DNA from: Escherichia phage vB_EcoM_Maryam
Sequence record: PQ799574.1
Strand: one strand, 5' to 3'
DNA: 64,000 nt
Shown here: one piece after another, positions 9,096 to 42,500 of the stretch
Position numbering within the stretch: the first letter of the stretch is position 1
Layout: the number at the start of each line of letters is the position of its first letter
Notes under the pieces: model-generated
The model's database searches: none
The model's input: only the letters and a program-made list of their open reading frames with translations
What the model was told of the DNA's origin: nothing
Position numbers and translations under genes: made by a program

Positions 9096-9596
9096 CTAGC
9101 TTACACGAACATTAATCACTGCGCTGCGAGGAACTACGGAGTACTCTCCAGCATGAACTACGTTCAGAAGTTCAACACCATCTTCAATCCACTGATCAGT
9201 TACCCAACCGCCAATCGGATTCGCGAATGGACGACGAATATAAACTGCCTTACACAACAAATCAGTCGGGTCTTCAATTTTTTCAACTGGTGTTACATAC
9301 ATAGAAACTAAATCCATATCAATATGGGATTTTTCTTGTTCTTCTTTTTCAATTTCTGTCAATAAATTGAAATCTTCTTCATAGATGATGAATGATGATA
9401 CCCTTCCATAATAGTTTCTAATTTCCATGTACACTGTACCAATGAGAATTCCGCTATTAACACTAATAACAGTAAAAGGATATCCGCCAGTTGTACCAAG
9501 AAGTTCCCAAAACTTGCTATCAGTCGTATTCGACATTGTCTGGAAATCAATTTCAGATGGTTTTTTCATTTGATACGTAGTATTAATTTTAATCAT
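9096..9596 (-). CDS. MotB-like paralogue (166 aa)
   Basis: C-terminal motif VTDQWIEDGV shared with 8531-9022. Confidence 0.45.
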   Translation of the reverse strand: MIKINTTYQMKKPSEIDFQTMSNTTDSKFWELLGTTGGYPFTVISVNSGILIGTVYMEIRNYYGRVSSFIIYEEDFNLLTEIEKEEQEKSHIDMDLVSMYVTPVEKIEDPTDLLCKAVYIRRPFANPIGGWVTDQWIEDGVELLNVVHAGEYSVVPRSAVINVRVS

Positions 9597-9605
9597 AATT
9601 TTCCT

Positions 9606-10118
9606 TTAATCTAAGGTAATAAAGCCTTTTAATTCGGCATGCGATTTGCGAAACATTACTTGATGCCCACCAATGATAACTTGATCATCTGGCACTTCAT
9701 AAATCGCAATGTACATTCCACGATCTTTTAAGTCTTCACGCTCTTCTCGAGTAAACCATCTCATTATATCATATTCACTAGCGAAAGCAAAATGATATAA
9801 TGCAATAAACCACAATGGAATATAATTTTCAATTCGTGAATAATCTTTATTCCATTTAGTTTTAATAGCATCATTAGCATTTTCAACTAATAACTTATCA
9901 TCGTGTGGAATAGGAATACTTTCATGACTTTCATAATCATTGCTATGATGATGAAATGATGATGAATTAATACCGCAAAATTTTAGCCAAGTTCGAGTTT
10001 TCATAGAATCAAATCCACGATAAGGAGTTGATTGAACACATAACTCTTGCCTAATTTTCATTATACCACTATCATCATTTAATGCGCTAAACGATGATTC
10101 AACACGATAAATTTTCAT
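9606..10118 (-). CDS. hypothetical protein (170 aa)
   Basis: Start moved to internal ATG (10116-10118) with GAGGA RBS; the track start overlaps a promoter. Confidence 0.45.
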   Translation of the reverse strand: MKIYRVESSFSALNDDSGIMKIRQELCVQSTPYRGFDSMKTRTWLKFCGINSSSFHHHSNDYESHESIPIPHDDKLLVENANDAIKTKWNKDYSRIENYIPLWFIALYHFAFASEYDIMRWFTREEREDLKDRGMYIAIYEVPDDQVIIGGHQVMFRKSHAELKGFITLD

Positions 10119-10145
10119 TTTATTATCCTCAGTAGCTATGGTGTT

Positions 10146-10175
10146 ATAATACCACAACTAACCGAGGAAGTAAAC
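10146..10175 (-). promoter_or_regulatory. early promoter (GTTTACT-N17-TATTAT)
   Basis: Consensus hexamers; leader CTACTGAGGATAATAAAATG follows. Confidence 0.45.
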
Positions 10176-10181
10176 AACTTT

Positions 10182-10865
10182 TTATCGTTTTGTTGGAAGA
10201 GATAGAGGATCGCACTCTTCCTCTGATGGAGCGTCTTCAAGACCCATCGCATAGCGCAAAGCATACTTCATCATCAGGATGTCTTTCGCACAGTCATGAA
10301 TAGAATCATGCGCAACGAATCCATCTAAAGTTCCCTTTGGAAGAGGACATGTGGTCATATCACGAACAAGCAGAAGTGCTTCAATTCTGGTACGAATATC
10401 ACGCTGATTCCAGAATTTACATGGTTCTAACTTAAATGTGTCAAGCTCATTCTCAGATACACCATTAAGGCGTTGAATATCACGAATGAGATCGACTAAA
10501 ATTGGAAAATCAAACGACATTCCACGGCACCAGCCTTGAGATTTCCAAGGATCGATATTATGTGCATTGATGTAATCATTAAATTTCGCAATACCGTCGA
10601 TAGTGCTTACATCTTCATCGGACGGTGCAATATTTTTTCGAGCTTCAGGAGACTGATTTTTCCACCATTCGATAGTGCTTTTAGTAAAAAGACGGTGTCC
10701 TTTTTGGCTTTTTAAATCAAATTTGATTTTAATGCCGCGTGAAACTAATTCATCAAATGTTTCAACTACTTCTGGGTTAGGGTCAAAAGCAATTACAGCT
10801 AAATCAATAACAGCTGCTTTTTCACCACTTCCCATTGTTTCAAAATCTATAATAAAATCAAACAT
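10182..10865 (-). CDS. dexA: exonuclease A (DnaQ-like 3'-5' exonuclease), 227 aa
   Basis: Length identical to T4 DexA; DnaQ-like exo I motif DFETMG. Confidence 0.8.
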   Translation of the reverse strand: MFDFIIDFETMGSGEKAAVIDLAVIAFDPNPEVVETFDELVSRGIKIKFDLKSQKGHRLFTKSTIEWWKNQSPEARKNIAPSDEDVSTIDGIAKFNDYINAHNIDPWKSQGWCRGMSFDFPILVDLIRDIQRLNGVSENELDTFKLEPCKFWNQRDIRTRIEALLLVRDMTTCPLPKGTLDGFVAHDSIHDCAKDILMMKYALRYAMGLEDAPSEEECDPLSLPTKR

Positions 10866-11122
10866 TAAATTTTCCTTGCTAAATCGCGAATTTGACCTAC
10901 AGTATAATCTTGGATATAAACTTTATTAATAGGCTCATCAATAAATTTTGACATAGATTCAATATCTTTTTGTATCTCTTCAAGACTGTATACTATCTTT
11001 AAAGCTTTTTCGCGAATAGTAATATTTTCAGGACCCTGATTTTCTTCAATGACAGCTTTAACATTTGTCATAAGAGATTTAAATTGGTACCAACTTAATT
11101 CAATCATTAATAATCGCCTCAT
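10865..11122 (-). CDS. hypothetical protein (85 aa), one of three tandem similar ORFs
   Basis: Overlapping tandem ORFs with related sequence. Confidence 0.4.
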   Translation of the reverse strand: MRRLLMIELSWYQFKSLMTNVKAVIEENQGPENITIREKALKIVYSLEEIQKDIESMSKFIDEPINKVYIQDYTVGQIRDLARKI

Positions 11123-11360
11123 AAAGATAGCTAATTTCGCCTAAAACATAATCATTAATTGTAACAGTTTTCACTTCACCGCAAAAGAATTCTAACGCAA
11201 TTAAATCTCGTTCAATTTCTTCTAATTGAAGCATCAACTTATTAGATTCAATTTTTACAGTTTCACGATTTTTACCATGAGCAATTTCATAAATTTCGCT
11301 AATTTTATCCTGAAGAAGATAAAACTGATCTTTAGTTATTTCCACGAATAGCTTCCTCAA
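11100..11360 (-). CDS. hypothetical protein (86 aa), tandem paralogue
   Basis: Similar length and motifs to 10865-11122. Confidence 0.4.
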   Translation of the reverse strand: MRKLFVEITKDQFYLLQDKISEIYEIAHGKNRETVKIESNKLMLQLEEIERDLIALEFFCGEVKTVTINDYVLGEISYLYEAIIND

Positions 11361-11592
11361 ATTTAATTAGTAATTTACAGACACTTTCATCTAGTGTAAT
11401 TACCGTATCTGTATTACTGTGATATGATTGTTTTTCAATTCGTTTAATTGCTAATATAGTATCACTTATAAGATAAAGCTTATGAAGGAGCTCAGCTCCT
11501 GTTACCATAACATTAAGATTATCTTGCTTATTAGTATGCTTCCTTATACCATCTATTAGACGATTTAAATATTTTGAATTGATGTTAATCAT
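11332..11592 (-). CDS. hypothetical protein (86 aa)
   Basis: Tandem overlapping ORF. Confidence 0.4.
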   Translation of the reverse strand: MININSKYLNRLIDGIRKHTNKQDNLNVMVTGAELLHKLYLISDTILAIKRIEKQSYHSNTDTVITLDESVCKLLIKFEEAIRGNN

Positions 11593-11598
11593 ATATCC

Positions 11599-12918
11599 TC
11601 ACACATAAAATACGTCATAACGACCACGGGTAACACCAACATAAAGAAGTTGTTGAGCCAATTCAGCATCTGCATAATGAATACAAGGCGTATAAATGAA
11701 AGCACGGTCTACAGACATACCCTGAGCTTTATGGAATGTTGATGCAGGAAGTGCTTTCACTTTACTGAACTGCGATTTAGCATCCCAAAAATCACTCCAT
11801 GGAGCTTTTCCGCCTTTGTTCCAATTTTTATAAGTTTCTGCCGTTTTACCTAAAAATAGGTTAAACTTATACAATTCTTCATCAGATGAAATTATTTTAA
11901 TCTTTTCACGATAATATTCATCATCGCCATAAGTTTCTACTGTTAAATCCCAATGACGAATTAAGTATTCCCCAGAAACACCACGAGCTTTAACAAACGT
12001 TGATGTATACTCTGCTTCTATAATACGAACTAATTGTCCGTTATTAAAAATAATTTCTGACACAGGCTTTCCATCAATTTTATATGTTTTAATTAATGGT
12101 TCCTGCATTACAATAATTTCACCGACAATAAAATCTTTATCAGTTTCAAAAATCTTTTTACGAATGATGTTATTTAACTTGTCAACAGATTTATTCGTAA
12201 ATGCCATTACGCGATTTTCAAACAAATCATCTAGTGATTTTACGATTGAAAAATAATTTACCATAAAATCGCGTAAAGCGGTATCACCAGTAAATCCACG
12301 TACTCCATGCCCGTCAACAACTTTATCATAAATCCACTTACCGTTGCGAACATCAGTAGCTACATCAATAATAGGAGCATTACTGCGTTTAACTTCAGTG
12401 AGTTCACACTGATAAAAATCTTTGTGTGTAAAGAATGGACTGATATAAGCAGTATTTTCTCCTGGGTCAACAGGTCTAATTTGCTTATTATCGCCTATTC
12501 CAATTATAGTACACCACGGCGGAATAGTTGAAAGCAGAATTTTAAACAGCTTTCTATCATACATTGACACTTCGTCACAGATTAATACTCTGCATTTAGC
12601 TAAATCTGGTACTTCCTTCTGCTCAAAGAGGACATTTTCTTCATATGTTACCGGGTTAATTTTAAGAATGCTGTGAATAGTACTCGCTTCTTTCCCTGAT
12701 AGTTTTGAAAGAATCTTTTTAGCTGCATGAGTAGGAGCTGCTAAAATAATACCAGTTTCACCCGTAGATATTAGGGCTTCAATGATGAATTTTGTAAGAG
12801 TAGTCTTACCAGTACCAGCAGGTCCATTAATAGTTACATGATGTTTCTTTTCTTTAATAGCCTTCATAACAATGTTAAAGGCATTTTTCTGGCCTTCTGT
12901 CAAATCATCAAATGTCAT
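11599..12918 (-). CDS. dda: Dda DNA helicase (SF1B), 439 aa
   Basis: Walker A GPAGTGKT; length identical to T4 Dda. Confidence 0.9.
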   Translation of the reverse strand: MTFDDLTEGQKNAFNIVMKAIKEKKHHVTINGPAGTGKTTLTKFIIEALISTGETGIILAAPTHAAKKILSKLSGKEASTIHSILKINPVTYEENVLFEQKEVPDLAKCRVLICDEVSMYDRKLFKILLSTIPPWCTIIGIGDNKQIRPVDPGENTAYISPFFTHKDFYQCELTEVKRSNAPIIDVATDVRNGKWIYDKVVDGHGVRGFTGDTALRDFMVNYFSIVKSLDDLFENRVMAFTNKSVDKLNNIIRKKIFETDKDFIVGEIIVMQEPLIKTYKIDGKPVSEIIFNNGQLVRIIEAEYTSTFVKARGVSGEYLIRHWDLTVETYGDDEYYREKIKIISSDEELYKFNLFLGKTAETYKNWNKGGKAPWSDFWDAKSQFSKVKALPASTFHKAQGMSVDRAFIYTPCIHYADAELAQQLLYVGVTRGRYDVFYV

Positions 12919-13226
12919 CGGAAAGTCCCTGCAATTGGAATACTAACAATACGCCCAGTATCTAGAATTCGTTGATATAATCTTTGTGTATCTACATCAG
13001 GCTTAACATGTTTAACTTCTATTTTATTAAACCAAAATTTACGTGGGGTCTCAACTAATCTTGGAATTCCCTTACCTAAAGCTAGTTTATATTGGTCTTT
13101 GAGAGTAGTAAAAACTCTATCAGCAATCTCTCTTTCAAAAAACACAGCAGGACGATGTTCATCAAGTGGAACTGGCGCCGTAAATCCGTCTTTGTCTCGG
13201 TAAACTATCGCATATACATAAACCAT
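12915..13226 (-). CDS. Dda.1-like protein (103 aa)
   Basis: Position downstream of dda; 4-nt overlap. Confidence 0.5.
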   Translation of the reverse strand: MVYVYAIVYRDKDGFTAPVPLDEHRPAVFFEREIADRVFTTLKDQYKLALGKGIPRLVETPRKFWFNKIEVKHVKPDVDTQRLYQRILDTGRIVSIPIAGTFR

Positions 13227-13227
13227 A

Positions 13228-13983
13228 TTATCCTCGGATAAGTTTAAAAATTGAACAATTTAGCGGGTATCCTCTTTTCAGTTTAAGTTTATCAATAAAA
13301 GACAAGTTTTGATACCGCTCTACACCTTGAATAATTTTATCACACATATCATATTGCATTTCTGCTTCTGACAACTTTTTCACAATTTTCCAATCCGAGC
13401 CTTTAAGAAGAACGTTCAGTTTAACAACTTCAGCGCCTTCTGCTATGCGAGAACCATCAATACGAGCTTTAAGTGCTATAATCTTTAGCTTAATGTCAGA
13501 GGTCTGTTTTGATTTAGAAAGCTGAGAAATGTGTTCAATTCGATTTTCACGTTTTTTCTGTATAGCTTTAATTTGATTATAAGTCTTTTTGATTTTAGCC
13601 CATTTCTTTTCATCTAAATTTAGTTTATGAACTTTTTTCGCAGATGAACGACCAATTCGCAAAGCAAATAAATCCCGTTTTTCAATCAACTCTTCTAAAG
13701 TATAATCAGAACGAAATGTATTATACTTTTTCTTTACTGCAATAACATTCCCTTTAATGTATCCAATGTTATTATCAAAACGTTCTAATGATAATTTCTC
13801 TCCTTCAATACGATTATCAAAAGGTTCTCCCGAGTAAGCACAAACTTTTTGATCTAAAATGTTCTTAATGTAATTGAAGTCTAAGTTAAAATCTTTAGAA
13901 CGTCTTTTTGCAGATGCCTGAGTATGCTCTAAACGACGTTTAATTTTACGAATTTGATTATTAGACATATTATGCAGTTTCAT
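13228..13983 (-). CDS. srd: Srd-like protein (251 aa)
   Basis: Size and position between dda.1 and modA; basic N-terminus. Confidence 0.5.
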   Translation of the reverse strand: MKLHNMSNNQIRKIKRRLEHTQASAKRRSKDFNLDFNYIKNILDQKVCAYSGEPFDNRIEGEKLSLERFDNNIGYIKGNVIAVKKKYNTFRSDYTLEELIEKRDLFALRIGRSSAKKVHKLNLDEKKWAKIKKTYNQIKAIQKKRENRIEHISQLSKSKQTSDIKLKIIALKARIDGSRIAEGAEVVKLNVLLKGSDWKIVKKLSEAEMQYDMCDKIIQGVERYQNLSFIDKLKLKRGYPLNCSIFKLIRG

Positions 13984-14018
13984 ATTTTTCTCACATCTTA
14001 CGGACGATTGACTACTAT

Positions 14019-14048
14019 ACTATAACATTTTTACCTTGGCTTGTAAAC
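14019..14048 (-). promoter_or_regulatory. early promoter upstream of srd (GTTTACA-N17-TATAGT)
   Basis: Consensus hexamers 36 nt upstream of the srd ATG. Confidence 0.45.
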
Positions 14049-14060
14049 AATTTTATGAAA

Positions 14061-14087
14061 AATGCTTTAAAAATTTCATGGTATAAT
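14061..14087 (+). promoter_or_regulatory. MotA-box middle-promoter-like element on the strand opposite the genes
   Basis: aaTGCTTtA, 12-nt spacer, TATAAT. Confidence 0.35.
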
Positions 14088-14104
14088 GAATCTAAGTCCT
14101 TCCA

Positions 14105-14707
14105 TTATAGATTAAATCCTTCAAAATCAAGAGTATAGATAGTGTATGTTGAGTACTTTTTGTACTCATATCTATCTGCAATTCTAAATACACTTCCAGC
14201 TGGTATCATTACTTCTTGTTCATCTGAAACTAATTCCATATTACGATAACGATGACTATCCGGAAACTTAAAGTTTGGATTGTATTCTTTACAGCGTAGA
14301 GCTTTTATAGCATACTCCTGGAAATTGAATACCATAGGAGCTTTGAATTCAAAAATAACTTGTGTGTTATACTCTAAACCAGAAGCAAAATGTAGAGCTA
14401 TATTTTTATCATATGAAGCTGATACGACTTTATCAAATGTAATAATATCAATTCCTTGATTTAATACTTGTTTAGTCTCAGCTGGAACACCTCTCCAAAG
14501 AGGTTTATCGTTTGGAACCAAACGAGATTTGATTATTTCATTTAACCAAGAATGATCGTCTGGTTTATTAGTAATACAATGAATTAAAAGTTCAATTTCA
14601 GATAAATTAAACCCTTCAGAAAGTAATTCTTCACGAATAGAAGCACGCACCGATGCATCCATTGATTTTATTTTAAAATCTTTTAGTTGCATTACCGAGT
14701 ATTTCAT
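14105..14707 (-). CDS. modA: ADP-ribosyltransferase ModA (200 aa)
   Basis: R-S-E type ART motifs (LWRG); T4 length and position. Confidence 0.7.
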   Translation of the reverse strand: MKYSVMQLKDFKIKSMDASVRASIREELLSEGFNLSEIELLIHCITNKPDDHSWLNEIIKSRLVPNDKPLWRGVPAETKQVLNQGIDIITFDKVVSASYDKNIALHFASGLEYNTQVIFEFKAPMVFNFQEYAIKALRCKEYNPNFKFPDSHRYRNMELVSDEQEVMIPAGSVFRIADRYEYKKYSTYTIYTLDFEGFNL

Positions 14708-15327
14708 TCAACTACCTCAATATCATAAACTTTAAATGTTCCAAATGAATCGTGTAATTTTTCTTTTGAAATAGAAGTTATTCTATACTTTCCAATTGGA
14801 ATCATCCATTCCTGTTCACGCACAATCATCATTAAGTTATCAGTACGCTCTGAATCTAATCCATCAGTATCTTCATACGTGTACTTAAACTCAGTATTAG
14901 GAGAAGAAAGTATAATATCGCTGATATGGTCAGAATAATTAAAAGCTTTATTAGTTTTTAAGCGAAGTATTATTTTAGTAAAATATTCAGCGTAAGAAAA
15001 AGAACATGCTGTGAGCAAACTAGTAGTAAATGAATCTACTCTATTCGTTGAAAACACTTCTCCAACTTGTAAATCTTTAATAAGTTCTTCTGTTGATTTT
15101 GATATACCACGATATAACTGATAAGGTGATTTAGTTAAATGCTTTTTAATGATTTTATTCAACTGCCGATGAAGAGCTTCATTCTTTTTGGCTTCCATAC
15201 ATTGCCAAAGAACTGACTGCTCAAAGTCAGTAAATTTTTCACAGACCTTTTTATACATATCATATTGAAAATCGACGCTTTCAGCTTTTATAGATAACTG
15301 TTCAACATCTGCAAGATTAATAATCAT
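14704..15327 (-). CDS. modB: ADP-ribosyltransferase ModB (207 aa)
   Basis: ART motif (YRG); T4 length and position. Confidence 0.7.
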   Translation of the reverse strand: MIINLADVEQLSIKAESVDFQYDMYKKVCEKFTDFEQSVLWQCMEAKKNEALHRQLNKIIKKHLTKSPYQLYRGISKSTEELIKDLQVGEVFSTNRVDSFTTSLLTACSFSYAEYFTKIILRLKTNKAFNYSDHISDIILSSPNTEFKYTYEDTDGLDSERTDNLMMIVREQEWMIPIGKYRITSISKEKLHDSFGTFKVYDIEVVE

Positions 15328-15394
15328 GATAGCCTCCGTATACTTCAGAAGCTATCATATCATCGTTAGAAAGGAAAGTAAACAACTTTTTGAA

Positions 15395-15577
15395 TTATTT
15401 TGCCCAGGGAGCCCAGGGCGGAGGGTCAAGATGGTATGAAGCTAGTTCTTCTAGAAGAGCATCTGGGGCTTCAATTCCATAATTCTGTAATACTATACGG
15501 TACTCTTTCTTATAATCACTAGAATCATTCTGGATATTCGTAGAATGATTATCTTCTAACATCTCAAATAAATCCAT
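15395..15577 (-). CDS. hypothetical protein (60 aa)
   Basis: ORF only. Confidence 0.35.
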   Translation of the reverse strand: MDLFEMLEDNHSTNIQNDSSDYKKEYRIVLQNYGIEAPDALLEELASYHLDPPPWAPWAK

Positions 15578-15585
15578 ATTAATTC

Positions 15586-16056
15586 CTAGCGATAAAAACC
15601 AAAATGACGATTAGCTTCAGCAATCTTTCTTTCTTCTTCGGACATTCTCCATCGTAGTCCAACATCAAAATGAGCCCAGACCATCCTAACAAATGCATTT
15701 ATATCTTTAATATCTTCAATAATGAATGTTTTACTTTTAGAAGGTTGACTCGCTAATTTAACTTTATCGTCTTCAAACATGTCAAAAAGACCATATTCAT
15801 GAGCTCTTTTATAGCCTTTAATAGTTAAAGCTTCAGAAGAAGAAAATGGTGAATCTGTATTCTGCAAAATATCTTCAGTATGCTTTATAATTAGAATAAT
15901 ATTTTCTGGATATTTTCTTTCTTTTATATCTTTAATTAAAATATCCGGATTTTCTGCTAAAGGAATAATTAATGAGCATTTTTTATCAAGTGTATTTACT
16001 GATTTACCTTCTTTAGACATAAATTCTATTGAATAATGTTTTGCTACTTCAATCAT
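15586..16056 (-). CDS. hypothetical protein (156 aa)
   Basis: ORF in the mod/mrh region. Confidence 0.45.
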
Positions 16057-16209
16057 GGGATTTCCTTTTGCCTACTAATGGACCATCGGGAATTTTGTTT
16101 TCCTGGATATATTTCTCATTTTCTTCCATCATTTTACTGCCAATTTTAAGAAGCAAATCCAGTGCTTCATTTGCTTTAGCTTTAGCCTCTTCCAGCGTCA
16201 TATCTTTGT

Positions 16210-16413
16210 TCACGATTTATCCCCATAGATGTCTCTCATCAATTTAAGCGCTGAGCGTTCTAATTTCTTTTCTTTCTCAGCACTAATCATTGATTTCATC
16301 CATTCTTCCGATTCGTTCTGCATTTCTTTATTTGCTTGTTCAACCCAACCATCATCAATGTACATTGAGTTTGGTCTATTGAACCATTCAAGAATCTTCT
16401 TGAGAGCTTTCAT
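16210..16413 (-). CDS. hypothetical protein (67 aa)
   Basis: ORF only. Confidence 0.35.
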
Positions 16414-16885
16414 TTATTTTACCTAAAACAATAGTAGGAGCATTGTCAAATTTATGAATTTTTAGCAAATTTGGATTTAAATTATTCCATAAAGAGGTAA
16501 TAAAATATGATAGCGCACTTTCGTCCGTAATTATAAATTTATTTCCTTTATCTATTTTCCAATCATATATTGAATCATATGAATAGAAGGATAACGGTTT
16601 ATTATTATAATATGCTTCAGCAACATCAATATAGTTAGATTTAGTAAATGCTTGAATTGCCATAAATGGAGAATTTTGTACAGTTTCAATAATTCCGATC
16701 TTTTTAAGTTTTATTTCAACATCTTCTGGAATTGGCATTGAAATAAAATCTTCTACTAGATACATGTTATTGTCATATCTTTTATCAATCATTACTGCTA
16801 CTGTAATTGGAACATCCTTGACAAACGCCATACTAATGCTATTGATAGACATTTCAAACAAAATTGCTTCCATAATTTTCCTCAA
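16388..16885 (-). CDS. hypothetical protein (165 aa)
   Basis: ORF only. Confidence 0.45.
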
Positions 16886-17223
16886 TCACAAGATGTAGAT
16901 GAACAACTAGAATCACAAGAACTTCCACATGAATCGCCCGTCCATACATAAACAGGAACATTTGTATCATATGAATCAGAACTAGACTGTGTTTTCTGTG
17001 CATTAGATGATGTAGTAGGTGTTGACCAGCGCCAAGGATTTTTATAATATTCTTGGGCTTCTTCATAAGTCATAGTAACTGCTTCTACTGTTCCATCTCC
17101 CATATAAACATACTCAACTACAGTTAAAGGAAGGTAGTCATTTGAAATAGGAACTACACCTTCTCCAGGAGTCGTAGAGAAAAAATCCGTAAAGAAACTT
17201 TTAAACCAATTAAAGATAAACAT
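16882..17223 (-). CDS. hypothetical protein (113 aa) with Cys/Ser-rich C-terminal tail
   Basis: C-terminus [18 protein letters not shown]. Confidence 0.45.
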
Positions 17224-17429
17224 TACAAAAAGCCTCTTTTGAATTCAACTTGTTTATCGCCATAATCATATCGAATTTCTGCATTAAATTCAACAGAACC
17301 ATCTGCGTACATCATAAATGAATGAACAACAACTTCTGTAGACCATGGTTGCAGTTCATATTTCTTCATTACATGCCGTGAAATGATAATATCTAAATCT
17401 TCATTTGGTTTAATCCAACGATTTAACAT
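17223..17429 (-). CDS. hypothetical protein (68 aa)
   Basis: RBS; consensus early promoter at 17456-17485. Confidence 0.45.
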   Translation of the reverse strand: MLNRWIKPNEDLDIIISRHVMKKYELQPWSTEVVVHSFMMYADGSVEFNAEIRYDYGDKQVEFKRGFL

Positions 17430-17455
17430 AATGCTCTCCTCTATAAGATAATTCT

Positions 17456-17485
17456 ATTATACCATACTCATTTTGGAAAGTAAAC
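17456..17485 (-). promoter_or_regulatory. early promoter (GTTTACT-N17-TATAAT)
   Basis: Perfect -10 and 17-nt spacing. Confidence 0.5.
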
Positions 17486-17490
17486 CGGTA

Positions 17491-17520
17491 AAATGAAAAA
17501 AGGACTCCCGAAGGAGTCCT
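17491..17520 (-). terminator. intrinsic terminator after soc
   Basis: 8-bp stem AGGACUCC with UUCG loop, then UUUUUUCAUUU. Confidence 0.7.
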
Positions 17521-17525
17521 TGAAA

Positions 17526-17771
17526 TTATTCACCAGTTACTTTCCACAAATCTTCGTTTGCAGTAATCCATTCAGTACGTTGATTTTCTTCATATACTGT
17601 AGAATATGCTGCTTTTTCTGAAGGGAATATCTGATAATGAGCTCCAGAAATTTTGTGAACGTCAGAATAAAGAGGGAAAGCTACAGAAATTTCCTTTCCT
17701 TCAATTTTCTTATTTCCATCTAATTTCTGCTCAAACGTTTTGATATTAACATAACCGCGAGTACTAGCCAT
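17526..17771 (-). CDS. soc: small outer capsid protein Soc
   Basis: 81-aa ORF of T4 Soc size; late promoter TATAAATA upstream; terminator downstream. Confidence 0.85.
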   Translation of the reverse strand: MASTRGYVNIKTFEQKLDGNKKIEGKEISVAFPLYSDVHKISGAHYQIFPSEKAAYSTVYEENQRTEWITANEDLWKVTGE

Positions 17772-17801
17772 GTAATTCTCCTTTTATTTAAATTACATGA
17801 T

Positions 17802-17809
17802 TATTTATA
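17802..17809 (-). promoter_or_regulatory. late promoter TATAAATA for soc
   Basis: Forward tatttata about 30 nt upstream of the soc ATG. Confidence 0.5.
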
Positions 17810-17993
17810 ATAAATTCTCACGGAACGTTAAAATACCCAATTTTAGTTAATATAACAATATCGCCGTTAATAATTACCGGAGAATAATCGGCTGGAGCAT
17901 TAAATTTTCAATGGGCTCTAATATTATATCCATCAGAACCAAATGCTCGACTAGCCGGTCTCCCGGCTTTTTGCCATGCATAAAAATCAAATT

Positions 17994-18200
17994 TCATTTT
18001 GAATGCTCTATAATTAATTTTAAGGCTTCTTCACGCACCAACTTGCCTAATGGTATATGACCAGTTTTAATTGTGTAAGCTTTGTGGAGCTGATTAGATA
18101 AGAGCTCGTATGTGAGCTCTTTGTCATAATTTTTAAATAGCTGGTCAATACGTTTCTTGCGGGCTTTCTTAAGCTGGCGTTTATTTAAACGAGCCATCAA
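17994..18200 (-). CDS. hypothetical basic protein (68 aa)
   Basis: ORF between 56 and soc. Confidence 0.4.
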   Translation of the reverse strand: MMARLNKRQLKKARKKRIDQLFKNYDKELTYELLSNQLHKAYTIKTGHIPLGKLVREEALKLIIEHSK

Positions 18201-18715
18201 TAACCTCGGTCTTGACGAGCGAAGTTTTCAGCATTTTTCAGATAATAAAGTTTAAAGATTTCTTCAGCTGACATTCCAAGAGCAATGAATTTATTCATGA
18301 AAAAGTGAAATTGGTCAATCAGTTCAAATTTAATTTCAAGCTGATCTTCAGGAGATAAGTCTTGAATTTTCTTGGATTGCATTTCAGAATAACGTTTCTT
18401 CCAAGGTTTCCATACGGCAGAAGCTTCTTTTTCACCATTACTCATACCACCAAGAGAAGTATATAGCTCGCGAGTTTCATCTGCGATATAATCGTCTTGG
18501 TTTCGCAGCCAAGTAAGAACTTCTCCTGCAGTTTCAAGTGAATCGGGATGACGATTTGTTTCTGGTTTATCATTAGCCAAACGAATCTGTAAATGCCGCT
18601 GCATATCAAGCATAACCTGCAGTGGGTCAATATTGTGCATAATATTCTCAGCATATGCACGATTTGCTTTATCAACACCTTCGATCAAATGAGCGCATTC
18701 ATTAAAGTGAGCCAT
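18197..18715 (-). CDS. 56: dCTPase / dUTPase (gp56), 172 aa
   Basis: Start taken at internal ATG (MAHFNE) with RBS; length then matches T4 gp56. Confidence 0.8.
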   Translation of the reverse strand: MAHFNECAHLIEGVDKANRAYAENIMHNIDPLQVMLDMQRHLQIRLANDKPETNRHPDSLETAGEVLTWLRNQDDYIADETRELYTSLGGMSNGEKEASAVWKPWKKRYSEMQSKKIQDLSPEDQLEIKFELIDQFHFFMNKFIALGMSAEEIFKLYYLKNAENFARQDRGY

Positions 18716-18786
18716 TATTTTTCCTTTCAATTCATGAGTTAGTAGATTAATTATACAATAAATATATAAAGCAATAAGGAGGACAT

Positions 18787-39582: not shown

Positions 39583-42500
39583 TTATTCAACCCATTCAAA
39601 TTTAACAGTTTTATTCACTGGGTCAGGAATAATACGAACATTACCAATTCGCAAGAAATCACGAATAGTAAGATTACCCATTATAGCATTATCAGATGGT
39701 AAAGCACCGATATCAGATGGCTGAGGAGGGTTACCTCCGTCAAATACCTGAACAAAACTTGACCAAGAGTTTTTGGTTTTCTGCCATGTGCGTGTCCAAC
39801 GAGTGGTACGCGCTTCTGGTGTTGTTGGATAAGTAATCCAATCTTGGTAAAGCGAATCAAGTGTGTTACCAAACTGAGTCAATGTACCAGGAGATTTAAC
39901 TTCTTCGCCACGTTCTAAGTATGGAAGTCCAGTCACTTCATTAGTTTTTTCAACCATTTTAAAATAACCAGGGAATTGATTATAAGTGGCTGAATCGTTA
40001 ATATCAATTGACCAGAATCCTACTGTATCAGTTGTTGGTGCGCGGGTATATAAATCAGATGTTTTAGTGCCCTGAGAACGAATTCTCGAGTTAACAGTCA
40101 AACCGCCTGAATTTATAGTAGCACCTTTGGCAATAATTAAGCTTTCGCCAATCGTTACTTGGCCAGATGCATTATTAATAGCTAAAGGACGTAATCCATT
40201 AAATCCACCAGTCTGATCACCCGATGCAGTAAGCATAAAATTCGTTACTGATCCATCATTGCGAACAATGAAACCATAATTTCCGTTAATAGCACGGAAA
40301 GCATTTGCGCTTCGAGAAATAATTTCACCAGTTGCAGTGACTGAATTACCAAATGTTGCTACACCATTTGCATTCAATGTTCCTGAAGCATTAACATTTA
40401 TAGGTGTTACTGTACCGTTGATATTAAATGTTATATTTCCGGCTTTATTGCGCTGAGAATAAAAATGACTAGATGTTTCATCACTAACTTCAAATACGGT
40501 AGAACGTGTTGTATCTAATTCCCCACTAAATTGATTTCCCCACACTCTAACAGTCATCGTTTGGGCTGGGTTTGTTCCAGTTTGAGGTCCTTTCTCAAAA
40601 ATCAATCGAGTTGCTGTTCCAGTATTAGAAATAGTTAATGTACTATTTGCTGAAACTGATCCACCGAACGTAGCAGTACTAGATGATACAAGAGGGGCAC
40701 TCAGATTCGTTTGTTGGGTTAAGGTTAGTGAACCATTAACTGTCTGCGCAATGTCCCTACGAATGAACTGAGATGAATCTAGACCATCCAATAAATTACT
40801 ATCTACAGCTTTTGCTTTTAATGGCAAATAATTTGCTAATACACGGTTTAATTCATATGGTGATACTGCATAACCATTTTTCTCATATGATTCTAATGGC
40901 TGTGTTGAACCTACCGTATCATTACCAACAAACGTTAATGAACCAGAAGAAGTTTTAACAAAGCCCCTTATCGCAGTAGTTGCTGCCCAAGTAGATTCGC
41001 TCTGCACAATCCATTTTAAATTTTTTGGAGATACAGCAGTATTTGCTGACGTTCCAGTCACAGTTTCAGACTGAGTTGCAACTTTAATAACACCTTCTTG
41101 TGCTTCAGTAGATTTAGTACCTAAAAGCTTTTTAGGAGTTATTAAAACATTATCTAATGTTCCTGCAGCAGCTTCGACCTGTGTAGCTACACGAAGTGTA
41201 CCACGCTGTGTCTCATTTGCTTCAAGAATATCAAGGGTATAATGGTCCCAGAGAGTTCCTGATTCAACTAATCCAGATAGAGCAACAACAGAAGTACGAT
41301 CAGTACTATTAAATCTGGTTTTAATTTTTAATGGTGTAGAGATACGAGTATCGTCGACGCCTGCGTCGAATTCAACCTGTGTAGCAATTTCAGCTATACC
41401 ACTTAAACTTTCAGTTGCTCTACGGTCATTTAAAGTTTTAGGAGTGACTGCACGAGTATAGTCAGTTCCTGTGTTAACTTCACTTTGCGTAGCAATTTCA
41501 ATTAAACCAATTCTTGCATCAGTTGATGTCTTTTTATGTAACGTTTCTGGCGTTACAACCGCATTTGCCCATCCTTCTTGGCTTTGTCCAGCAATTACTT
41601 CACTTTCAACTGCTAAAATTACTGCGCCTTGTTGCGTTGGAGTAGCTTTATACTGATCCAAAGCTTTAGGTGAAACAACTAAATTATTAGTGTTTTTATT
41701 ATAAACATTCGTACCATTTAATTCACGACTAGAAGCTGGAGTAGCACCTGCAGTAGATACAAAGGTTACAATACCAGATAATGATTCAGAACCTTGACGA
41801 GCTTGAAGCTTTTTAGGAGTGATGATTGTAGTATCATCGGTTCCTGCATTAGTTTCTTGCTGCGTAGCAATTTCTGCGACACCTCTACGAGTTTCTGTAG
41901 CAGTTCTTTCATTCAGCTTTTTAGGAGTAATGATAAGGTCATCTGCAAAAGAGAATGTGGTGTTCTGATTCACTTGAGCAGTAGTTGCTATTCTTGCAAT
42001 ACCTCTACGAGTTTCTGTAGCAGTACGATTAGCTAACGTTTCTGGAGTAATTGCCAATTCTTTTTGTGGAGAATTTTCTAAATCAGCATTAGCTTGAGCT
42101 TGTGTAGCTAAAGCAATTACACCTAATCTTGCTCTAGTAGAATCATTTAAAGAATCTACTCTTTCTACGGTTGGAACATTTTGCTGTACAACCCAATATT
42201 TTCCGTCAGAATCTTCTATATAAGCAAGCTCTAAAACTGGAACATAATTAGTTTCACCGTTAAAAACTAATTCTTGAACTGTAACCCACTCAGCTTCAGG
42301 TGGATATTCTGAGCGTTTTGGGAATTGCAGCAATTGAACTGAAGAAGCAATTTTATCTTCACCTGCAGCTTTGATTTTAACCGTTTGTCCTTTTCTCATG
42401 TAATTCATAGAAATTTTGACAGTATCACCAACAGAAATATCAGTCGGAAGCTGAAGTTCAATTGTTTGGGTTGTTCCATTATTCGCGCCAAATACCATGA

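What the first reader, a model, noticed from the sequence alone, without database searches (positions are those of the whole stretch)
14061..14095. Consensus MotA-type middle promoter pointing against the genes between srd and modA
aaTGCTTtA, a 12-nt spacer and TATAAT form a near-perfect MotA-box promoter on the plus strand, although every gene in this block is on the minus strand. Transcription from here would run antisense into modA. In T4, middle-mode promoters serve as replication-origin primers, and an origin (oriA) maps to this general area, so this may be an origin primer promoter rather than an mRNA promoter. A converging minus-strand early promoter sits 15 nt away.
Basis: inference. 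Interest (0 to 1): 0.45.

Follow-up and report, generated by a model that had tools for sequence, protein, structure and literature searches.

The report
Conserved orphan antisense T4 middle promoter

Summary
In detail: on the + strand, AAATGCTTTA (14060-14069), a 12-nt spacer with TGn, and TATAAT (14082-14087) form a MotA-type middle promoter in the srd-modA gap, predicted start 14094. A weight matrix built from the experimentally identified T4 middle promoters ranks it first in the window and first on both strands of the whole T4 genome. The same antisense promoter sits upstream of srd in all ten MotA-type genera sampled. Across seven genera, 14 of 16 invariant gap columns are the MotA-box core, the -10 hexamer and the G after it. 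It is missing from an RB49-like phage, a group with no motA. It always lies within a polymerase footprint of the srd early promoter. In T4 it shares an exact 21-mer with PuvsY, the oriF primer promoter, and with a second orphan antisense promoter. oriA is annotated 4.9 kb away with a minus-strand primer from P56, and the neighbouring early promoter diverges from this one; it does not converge. The most likely role is an early-to-middle switch acting by promoter competition and head-on antisense transcription into modA-modB. An R-loop origin primer remains possible. The site is absent from the published table of identified T4 middle promoters, though a 2006 supplement lists its RB69 counterpart without comment.

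The parts
14060..14069 (+). MotA box AAATGCTTTA (core TGCTTTA at 14063-14069), a 10/10 match to the consensus (a/t)(a/t)(a/t)TGCTTtA
   Evidence: The core GCTTT is invariant in the alignment of seven genera.
14070..14081 (+). 12-nt spacer, the commonest length among known T4 middle promoters; its last three bases, TGG (14079-14081), form the TGn extended -10 motif
   Evidence: spacer lengths among the 58 known promoters: 12 nt in 28, 13 nt in 15. The spacer sequence is not conserved between genera.
14082..14087 (+). sigma-70 -10 hexamer TATAAT
   Evidence: TATAAT and the following G are invariant across seven genera.
14094..14094 (+). Predicted transcription start (the A in gaatctAagtcc), placed by identity with the mapped PuvsY start at T4 115371
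   Evidence: This is an inference; no transcript data were available.
14079..14107 (+). Stretch shared with PuvsY, the oriF primer promoter: an exact 21-mer TGGTATAATGAATCTAAGTCC (14079-14099) and 27 of 29 positions up to the modA stop codon. A third copy lies at T4 about +76000.
   Evidence: Tequatrovirus genomes carry three exact copies of GGTATAATGRRTCTAAGTCC each.
14019..14048 (-). Early sigma-70-type promoter for srd: -35 GTTTACA (14048-14042), 17-nt spacer, TG-extended -10 TATAGT (14024-14019). It is back-to-back with the middle promoter, with predicted starts about 82 nt apart, so the MotA box falls at about -57 to -51 of this promoter.
14105..14707 (-). modA (RNA polymerase ADP-ribosylase), the first gene that the plus-strand transcript would enter, in antisense; its stop codon is at 14105-14107, 11 nt past the predicted start
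14704..15327 (-). modB (ADP-ribosylase), the next gene the antisense transcript would reach if it is not terminated
   Evidence: There is no convincing conserved terminator on the antisense strand.
13228..13983 (-). srd, the gene served by the adjacent early promoter

Best explanation
This is a functional MotA/AsiA-dependent middle-mode promoter that serves no gene. Once MotA and AsiA have been made, a few minutes into infection, host RNA polymerase initiates at about 14094 on the + strand and transcribes a non-coding RNA head-on into modA and probably modB. The promoter always lies within one polymerase footprint of the srd early promoter. In Tequatro-, Mosig-, Dhaka-, Gapriver- and Kanagawavirus the two are back-to-back, and the MotA box sits in the early promoter's -59 to -43 upstream (UP-element) zone. 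In Karam-, Gelderland- and Winklervirus they are face-to-face with coincident starts. I therefore propose that it works as a local early-to-middle switch. First, MotA and polymerase bound here compete with the srd early promoter. Second, the outgoing polymerase and its antisense RNA oppose early read-through transcription and the modB-modA mRNA, helping to confine these toxic ADP-ribosyltransferases to the early period. Shown here: the motif, its rank, its conservation and the geometry. Inferred: that it fires in vivo, that occupancy of the two promoters is mutually exclusive, and that modA-modB or srd expression is reduced as a result.
For: The site is the best PWM match in the window and in all of T4 on both strands: 23.8 bits, above every identified middle promoter. 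Only two plus-strand sites in T4 reach 16 bits, against 39 on the minus strand, and those two rank first and second. Chance does not explain this: no score of 22 bits or more in 6.8 Mb of null sequence, and P of about 0.0016 for 15.6 bits or more in a 150-nt gap on one strand. The antisense promoter is present in the gap upstream of srd in ten genera although ModA is only 25-36% identical: Mosig 22.9, Gelderland 20.2, Dhaka 18.1, Gapriver 18.0, Kanagawa 17.2, Jiaoda 16.5, Hadassah 16.2, Karam 15.6 and Winkler 15.6 bits. In each 4-5.6-kb locus it is the only antisense hit or the best one. In the seven-genus alignment, 14 of 16 invariant columns are GCTTT and TATAATG, and the spacer is free to vary. 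The distance from the MotA box to the early -35 varies while the distance from the box to the -10 is kept. Krischvirus JSE serves as a negative control. It has no site of 12 bits or more on either strand of 4.3 kb, and RB49-type phages have no motA or middle-promoter consensus (PMC1524935). Polymerase footprints would overlap in both architectures. There is no gene on the + strand to express, and the 5' 150 nt of the RNA is unstructured (z = -0.85). ModA is highly toxic, and how early transcription is shut off remains unexplained (PMC2988021).
Against: I could not obtain transcript data. The site is not among the 58 identified T4 middle promoters, and the T4 dRNA-seq start-site table (150 starts, 22 of them antisense) is not held. 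There is no conserved terminator, so the extent of the RNA is unknown. In Acinetobacter phage AB-Navy71 a similar promoter (14-nt spacer) sits upstream of srd with no modA, and its RNA would end at a terminator after about 140 nt without overlapping any gene. That argues against an explanation based only on antisense pairing with modA. Promoter occlusion is inferred from geometry alone. The review reports that deleting modA does not change the decline of early transcription, so any regulatory effect may be subtle. T4's one characterised orphan antisense middle promoter, P34i, is an origin.
Confidence: 0.45

Rival explanations
1. R-loop origin primer promoter. The plus-strand middle transcript stays hybridised in the A+T-rich DNA just downstream, is processed, and primes rightward leading-strand synthesis as at oriF and oriG. 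On this view the site is an unrecognised origin, or contributes to the replication signal attributed to oriA.
For: The minimal oriF and oriG elements are a middle promoter plus an A+T-rich DUE (PMC3016281). The site shares an exact 21-mer, and 27 of 29 positions including the first bases transcribed, with PuvsY, the oriF promoter. The oriG primer promoter P34i is likewise an orphan promoter antisense to a gene. The +11..+60 region is 76% A+T (93rd genome percentile), against 74% for oriF. The site lies 4.9 kb from oriA and points towards it. The second orphan lies 3.3 kb from oriE and also points towards it. The review places oriA only loosely, 'near soc'.
Against: oriA is annotated at 16763 with a minus-strand primer from the gene 56 transcript, and all four origins annotated in the record (oriA, oriE, oriF, oriG) are given as '(-) strand direction'. 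According to the review, only oriF and oriG support autonomous plasmid replication. The A+T test does not discriminate: oriG is only 64%, and ordinary promoters overlap the range. The identity with PuvsY is lineage-specific. It is partial in VR7 (15 nt) and absent in QL01, so it looks like duplication or gene conversion and not a shared origin requirement. The tight, conserved coupling to the srd early promoter is not something an origin would need.
Confidence: 0.2
2. The promoter's product is a trans-acting or otherwise functional small non-coding RNA, and its overlap with modA in Tevenvirinae is incidental.
For: In AB-Navy71 the equivalent promoter would yield a discrete, terminated RNA of about 140 nt with GC-rich hairpins, lying wholly within an intergenic gap. 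The first transcribed bases are conserved across genera (TATAATGGTTCTAAGG-like). The T4 5' end, AAGUCCUUCC, is pyrimidine-rich.
Against: The first 150 nt are not significantly structured in the window or in T4 (z = -0.85 and -0.57). There is no Rfam match and no conserved terminator in Tevenvirinae. Downstream sequence is simply the reverse complement of the poorly conserved modA coding region. The same start-region motif also occurs on ordinary mRNA promoters such as PnrdC.7, APCEc01 PrnlB and VR5 Pcd.3, so it looks like a promoter feature and not an RNA motif.
Confidence: 0.1
3. A non-functional by-product: a duplicated copy of a strong middle-promoter cassette (related to PuvsY) that landed in the gap, or a MotA-box look-alike maintained by the upstream A/T-rich element of the srd early promoter.
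For: T4 has three copies of the module, which suggests cassette duplication. The MotA box overlaps the UP-element zone of the early promoter. The site is not in the list of identified promoters.
Against: The promoter is conserved in the same gap and orientation in ten genera, with selective invariance of the GCTTT and TATAATG columns and preserved 12-13-nt spacing. Meanwhile the flanks, the spacer and even the relative position of the early promoter all change. It is absent exactly where motA is absent. A UP element would not require an invariant TATAAT 12-13 nt away on the opposite strand.
Confidence: 0.07

Closest known systems
T4 P34i, the oriG / ori(34) primer promoter
   Same: It is a MotA-dependent middle promoter with no gene to express, pointing against the gene it lies in or beside. 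It is a strong consensus match (18.7 bits in T4, 21.3 bits for its counterpart in this window).
   Different: P34i lies inside a late structural gene, is a proven origin on plasmids and in the genome, and runs in the (-) direction. The present site is intergenic, runs in the (+) direction, is coupled to an early promoter, and has no replication data.
T4 PuvsY, the oriF / ori(uvsY) promoter
   Same: It shares an exact 21-mer covering TGn, the -10, the discriminator and the first 6 transcribed bases, and 27 of 29 positions overall. Both have a near-consensus MotA box, and they rank 1 and 3 in the genome.
   Different: PuvsY is a sense promoter that also expresses uvsY. Its spacer is 13 nt, not 12, and has a different sequence. 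Its DUE and R-loop have been shown experimentally.
Identified T4 middle promoters (58 in Hinton 2010, Table 1)
   Same: Same architecture: a MotA box at about -30, 11-13 nt, then a sigma-70 -10, often with TGn.
   Different: All 58 are on the minus strand, co-directional with the early and middle genes; of these, P34i is itself an orphan, antisense to late gene 34. This site is on the plus strand and has no downstream gene. None of the 58 combines a 7/7 box, a 12-nt spacer and TATAAT.
Cis-antisense and convergent-promoter switches in phages (lambda oop and PaQ, P22 sar, and T4 gene 32 antisense transcription, Belin et al. 1987, cited); apart from that citation, this comparison rests on my own knowledge
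   Same: A promoter placed at or after the 3' end of a gene and firing back into it, timed by the phage programme, so that it can act through RNA pairing or polymerase collision.
   Different: Here the activator is MotA/AsiA sigma appropriation. The promoter also overlaps the control region of the next gene's early promoter, and no target effect has been shown.
PeSL 'promoter-early stem-loop' mobile cassettes of T4-type phages (Arbiol et al. 2010; from my own knowledge, not read here)
   Same: Short promoter-containing modules repeated within and between T4-type genomes, which suggests recombination at regulatory cassettes. Here a roughly 50-bp middle-promoter module occurs three times in T4 and in other contexts in Mosigvirus and Dhakavirus.
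   Different: PeSLs carry early promoters with a stem-loop. This module is a middle promoter with a conserved start region and no stem-loop.

Membership tests
MotA/AsiA-dependent T4 middle promoter | MotA box (a/t)(a/t)(a/t)TGCTTtA centred near -30 | tested here: met
   AAATGCTTTA at 14060-14069 matches 10 of 10 positions. The consensus is as given in PMC2988021 and PMC1524935.
MotA/AsiA-dependent T4 middle promoter | sigma-70 -10 element (TAnnnT) 11-13 bp downstream of the box, often with TGn | tested here: met
   TATAAT at 14082-14087, a 12-nt spacer, and TGG immediately upstream. Twelve nt is the commonest spacing among the 58 known promoters.
MotA/AsiA-dependent T4 middle promoter | No functional sigma-70 -35 hexamer in place of the box (hence dependence on the activator) | tested here: met
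   The sigma-70 scan (TTGACA, 16-18 nt, TATAAT, at least 9 of 12) reports no plus-strand promoter ending at 14087. The bases 17 nt upstream of the -10 read AAAATG.
MotA/AsiA-dependent T4 middle promoter | The phage encodes MotA and AsiA | tested here: inconclusive
   Window 31777-33606 matches T4 162025-160197 at 97% identity, which includes asiA (T4 160878-161150). motA (T4 162967-163602) lies just beyond the window's breakpoint and so is not in the window. Many sense-strand middle promoters are present in the window.
MotA/AsiA-dependent T4 middle promoter | MotA/AsiA-dependent initiation in vivo or in vitro | not testable with these tools
   The site is not in the table of identified promoters, and the T4 dRNA-seq start-site table is not held.
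T4 R-loop replication origin (oriF/oriG type) | A middle-mode promoter within a minimal element of about 100 bp | tested here: met
   See the rows above. The definition is from PMC3016281, section 6.
T4 R-loop replication origin (oriF/oriG type) | [quoted passage not shown] | tested here: inconclusive
   The +11..+60 region is 76% A+T (93rd genome percentile), against 74% for oriF and 64% for oriG. Ordinary middle promoters overlap this range, so the measure does not discriminate.
T4 R-loop replication origin (oriF/oriG type) | A persistent R-loop, and origin activity (plasmid replication or a nascent-DNA peak) | not testable with these tools
   According to the review, only oriF and oriG support autonomous plasmid replication. 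There are no data for this site.
T4 oriA specifically | Coincides with the mapped oriA and its primer transcript | tested here: not met
   The T4 record puts oriA at 16763 in gene 56, in the (-) direction, with the gene 56/segF transcript as primer. P56/69 starts at 16813. This site is at T4 11866-11897 on the + strand, 4.9 kb away.
Cis-antisense RNA / transcriptional-interference element | A promoter oriented against an adjacent gene so that the transcript overlaps its mRNA | tested here: met
   The predicted start at 14094 is 11 nt from the modA stop codon (14105-14107), and the same layout is found in all nine Tevenvirinae genera sampled. The overlap follows from the geometry; the transcript itself has not been observed.
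Cis-antisense RNA / transcriptional-interference element | A measurable effect on the expression of the opposed gene or the neighbouring promoter | not testable with these tools
   Only the geometry is available: the footprints overlap with the srd early promoter in both architectures.

The most novel reading that the evidence does not exclude
The two orphan plus-strand middle promoters of T4-type phages are a conserved class of clockwise R-loop primer promoters. They are this one, in the srd-modA gap, and its sibling in the gene 3-gene 2 gap. Both are relatives of the oriF promoter, and each points towards a mapped origin 3-5 kb away (oriA and oriE). On this reading they generate or contribute to the replication signals assigned to oriA and oriE, whose initiation mechanisms are still poorly defined. 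The review states that no middle promoter lies near oriE.
Probability: 0.15. Interest if true: 0.7.

Novelty: new member of a known kind. Interest (0 to 1): 0.5.

Why it matters
T4 is the reference system for temporal control of phage transcription and for R-loop-primed replication. The best match to the middle-promoter consensus in its whole genome is missing from the catalogue of identified promoters, serves no gene, and is conserved in ten genera. If it is an early-to-middle switch, it gives a concrete local mechanism for shutting off an early promoter and the toxic ADP-ribosyltransferase genes, a step the field still calls unexplained. If it is an origin primer, it would revise the poorly understood oriA. 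Both ideas can be tested with one intergenic point mutant and with existing dRNA-seq data. The conserved start region (TATAATGGTTCTAAGG-like) shared by the strongest middle promoters also suggests that the accepted consensus is incomplete.

Tried and rejected
1. Curated promoter features in the T4 records AF158101 and NC_000866: there are none; only CDS, RNA, rep_origin and misc features are annotated.

2. Literature. Miller 2003, Brister 2008, Brister and Nossal 2007, Vaiskunaite 1999 and Tiemann 1999 and 2004 are not held. I did not look for the other primary papers (Mosig 1995/1998, Stoskiene 2007, Truncaite 2003). The start-site table of the T4 dRNA-seq preprint is not among the held supplements. 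The 2022 T4 RNA-seq paper does not mention antisense transcripts.

3. A ModA-based scan of IMG/VR returned only six near-identical loci, so I used the annotated phage collection instead.

4. Terminator search on the antisense strand: there are only weak hits in the window and nothing conserved in Mosigvirus or Dhakavirus.

5. Rfam search of four loci: no relevant match.

6. RNA folding of the first 150 nt: not significant.

7. DUE test by A+T content: it does not discriminate. My "least stable window" lines mistakenly reported the most stable windows and should be ignored.

8. Concerted evolution of PuvsY and this promoter: partial in VR7 and absent in QL01, so I rejected it as a general rule.

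9. Plus-strand ORFs downstream (35 aa starting with GTG, 59 aa starting with TTG): no ribosome-binding site, no conservation, antisense to a fast-evolving gene. Rejected as coding.

10. The apparent excess of plus-strand MotA-box hits beyond 40 kb in the window is explained by the inverted block.

Full report
**What the window is.** The region around the finding matches about 500 Tequatrovirus genomes at 95-99% identity, with phage AV122 the best at 98.8%. Window 11599-17809 is collinear with T4 9410-15610 at 96.7% identity. The ORFs flanking the site are srd (13228-13983, -) and modA (14105-14707, -), followed by modB.

**Check of the observation.** On the + strand, AAATGCTTTA lies at 14060-14069, followed by a 12-nt spacer ending in TGG, then TATAAT at 14082-14087. 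T4 has the same element at 11863-11890, with one spacer substitution. The strict pattern TGCTTTA-N12-TATAAT occurs once in the 64-kb window on either strand.

I took the start sites of the 58 identified T4 middle promoters from Hinton 2010, Table 1 (PMC2988021). I confirmed that they all lie on the minus strand with the expected motifs, and built a box + spacer + TGn/-10 weight matrix from the 50 with a recognisable box. Results:
- On both strands of T4 the site ranks first, at 23.8 bits. It is still first, at 23.6 bits, when PuvsY is left out, and it is first in the window.
- Only two plus-strand positions in T4 reach 16 bits, against 39 on the minus strand. Those two rank first and second.
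- In 6.8 Mb of first-order Markov sequence with T4 composition, nothing reached 22 bits.
- None of the 58 known promoters combines a 7/7 box, a 12-nt spacer and TATAAT.

The neighbouring minus-strand early promoter (GTTTACA, 17 nt, TG-TATAGT; 14048..14019) is also real. However, it fires leftwards into srd while the middle promoter fires rightwards. The two are divergent, not converging.

**Relation to oriA.** The T4 record annotates oriA at 16763 in gene 56, [quoted passage not shown]. The identified middle promoter P56/69 starts at 16813. [quoted passage not shown] The site studied here is 4.9 kb away on the other strand. In the window, the P56 equivalent is a minus-strand promoter with a predicted start near 18743. 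It is therefore not the oriA primer promoter as currently defined.

**An unexpected relative.** The site shares an exact 21-mer, TGGTATAATGAATCTAAGTCC, with PuvsY, the primer promoter of oriF. Identity is 27 of 29 positions up to the modA stop codon. The stretch covers the TGn motif, the -10, the discriminator and the first transcribed bases. This is what places the predicted start at window 14094.

A third copy is the other top-scoring plus-strand site, at T4 about 76000 in the gene 3-gene 2 gap. Tequatrovirus genomes carry three copies each.

Similar modules, with TATAATG(A/G)(A/G)TCTA(A/G)GTxC, precede ordinary genes in other genera: rnlB in Mosigvirus APCEc01 and cd.3 in Dhakavirus VR5. 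In VR7 the uvsY promoter and the antisense promoter share a different 15-mer, and in QL01 they do not match at all. I read this as an extended consensus for strong middle promoters, plus a lineage-specific duplication or gene conversion in Tequatrovirus. I do not read it as a shared origin requirement.

**Conservation.** ModA identity is bimodal: at least 95% within Tequatrovirus and below 40% elsewhere. Even so, the gap upstream of srd carries a MotA-type promoter on the antisense strand in every MotA-type genus sampled:

| Genus | Score (bits) |
|---|---|
| Mosigvirus | 22.9 |
| Gelderlandvirus | 20.2 |
| Dhakavirus | 18.1 and 16.1 (two phages) |
| Gaprivervirus | 18.0 |
| Kanagawavirus | 17.2 |
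| Jiaodavirus | 16.5 |
| Hadassahvirus (Acinetobacter; 14-nt spacer) | 16.2 |
| Karamvirus | 15.6 |
| Winklervirus | 15.6 |

- In each 4-5.6-kb locus it is the only antisense-strand hit or the best one.
- In the alignment of eight gaps from seven genera, 14 of the 16 invariant columns are GCTTT and TATAATG. The spacer and flanks vary.
- The chance of a score of 15.6 bits or more in such a gap on one strand is about 0.0016.
- The Krischvirus JSE has the same gene order but no site of 12 bits or more on either strand. RB49-type phages lack motA and a middle-promoter consensus (PMC1524935).

This pattern shows selection on the antisense promoter itself.

**Geometry.**
- In Tequatro-, Mosig-, Dhaka-, Gapriver- and Kanagawavirus the two promoters are back-to-back, with predicted starts 74-84 nt apart. 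This puts the MotA box at -59 to -43 of the early promoter, the zone where UP elements are contacted.
- In Karam-, Gelderland- and Winklervirus the promoters are face-to-face, with predicted starts within 1 nt of each other.

In both layouts the two polymerase footprints must overlap. In all nine Tevenvirinae genera the RNA runs into modA within about 60 nt of its start. In the Acinetobacter phage there is no modA, and the RNA would stop at a bidirectional terminator after about 140 nt.

**The transcript.**
- There is no plus-strand gene to express.
- There is no convincing conserved terminator.
- There is no Rfam family match.
- The first 150 nt show no significant structure (z = -0.85 in the window, -0.57 in T4).

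**Origin test.** According to the review, the minimal oriF and oriG elements are a middle promoter plus an A+T-rich DUE. They form persistent R-loops and replicate plasmids autonomously in infected cells. The promoter criterion is met. The downstream +11..+60 region is 76% A+T, at least equal to oriF's 74%. But oriG's is 64% and ordinary promoters overlap the range, so the test is uninformative. R-loop formation and origin activity cannot be tested with these tools.

**Interpretation.** I give about 0.85 that this is a working MotA-dependent promoter. For its role I favour (0.45) a local early-to-middle switch. MotA and polymerase bound here would compete with the srd early promoter, while outgoing polymerases and their RNA would oppose early read-through and the modB-modA mRNA. 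This fits three things: the conserved coupling to the early promoter, the toxicity of ModA, and the fact that the shut-off of early transcription is still unexplained.

An R-loop origin primer remains a serious rival (0.2), because T4's one characterised orphan antisense middle promoter, P34i, is an origin and because of the kinship with PuvsY. A trans-acting RNA (0.1) and a non-functional duplicate (0.07) are less likely.

**Novelty.** The site is absent from the table of identified T4 middle promoters and from the T4 record's features. Its RB69 counterpart does appear, without comment that I could find, as "Pm:12081 (+), score 7.9, 1 bp ins" in a 2006 supplement. The gene 3-gene 2 site appears there as "Pm:79256 (+)". 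The motif is therefore not wholly unseen. I did not find the following described in any paper I could read: its rank, its conservation in ten genera, its coupling to the early promoter, or the three-copy module shared with the oriF promoter. Several key subscription papers were unavailable. I classify it as a new member of a known kind.

Noticed in passing
T4 (L004) + strand about 75966-76000, outside this window; RB69 (L045) + strand about 79262-79296: There is a second orphan plus-strand MotA-type promoter in the gene 3-gene 2 gap (T4 23.4 bits, rank 2 genome-wide). It carries the same module as this site and PuvsY and is conserved in RB69 (15.1 bits; listed as Pm:79256 in the Nolan 2006 supplement). 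It points towards oriE, 3.3 kb away, although the review says no middle promoter lies near oriE.
   Followed up: partly
window 31776|31777: There is a breakpoint here. Window 1-31776 is collinear with T4 166552..30862, and then the match jumps to T4 162025 and runs in reverse to 130105. None of 515 matching phage records spans the junction, and it truncates gene 62. It is probably an assembly join or chimera, less likely a real 131-kb inversion.
   Followed up: partly
window + strand 41215-41243 (predicted start about 41250), in the inverted block: This is the counterpart of T4 P34i, the oriG primer promoter (21.3 bits). Together with the P56/oriA-equivalent promoter (minus strand 18776-18750, start about 18743), the window therefore holds the promoters of two annotated T4 origins.
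   Followed up: no
window - strand 14007-13996 (CGTCCGTAAGAT), just upstream of the srd start codon: A srd leader motif, CGTCCGTAAGA(T/C)G...GA(A/G)AAAATAT, is strongly conserved in Tequatro-, Mosig-, Dhaka- and Gaprivervirus. In Jiaodavirus it overlaps the spacer of the antisense promoter. It may be a translational or RNA-processing signal.
   Followed up: no
T4 PnrdC.7, PuvsY and sites 1 and 2; L027 1500-1560; L028 1500-1545; the antisense promoters in L029-L041: The strongest middle promoters in several genera share a start-region motif, TATAATG(G/A)(T/A/G)TCT(A/G)(A/G)G(T)(C)C. It is not part of the MotA-box/-10 consensus given in the reviews I read, so it may be an unrecognised extension of that consensus.
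   Followed up: partly
L041 (Acinetobacter phage AB-Navy71) 1375-1545, - strand: An antisense MotA-type promoter (TGCTTTA-N14-TATAAT) upstream of srd would produce a terminated RNA of about 140 nt with GC-rich hairpins, lying wholly inside a 376-nt intergenic gap with no modA nearby. Folding gives z = -2.2, and there is no Rfam match.
   Followed up: partly
window 17809-18234 compared with T4 15610-16307: The segF homing-endonuclease gene of T4 appears to be missing or replaced in this phage, and the gene 56 region is only 75% identical to T4.
   Followed up: no
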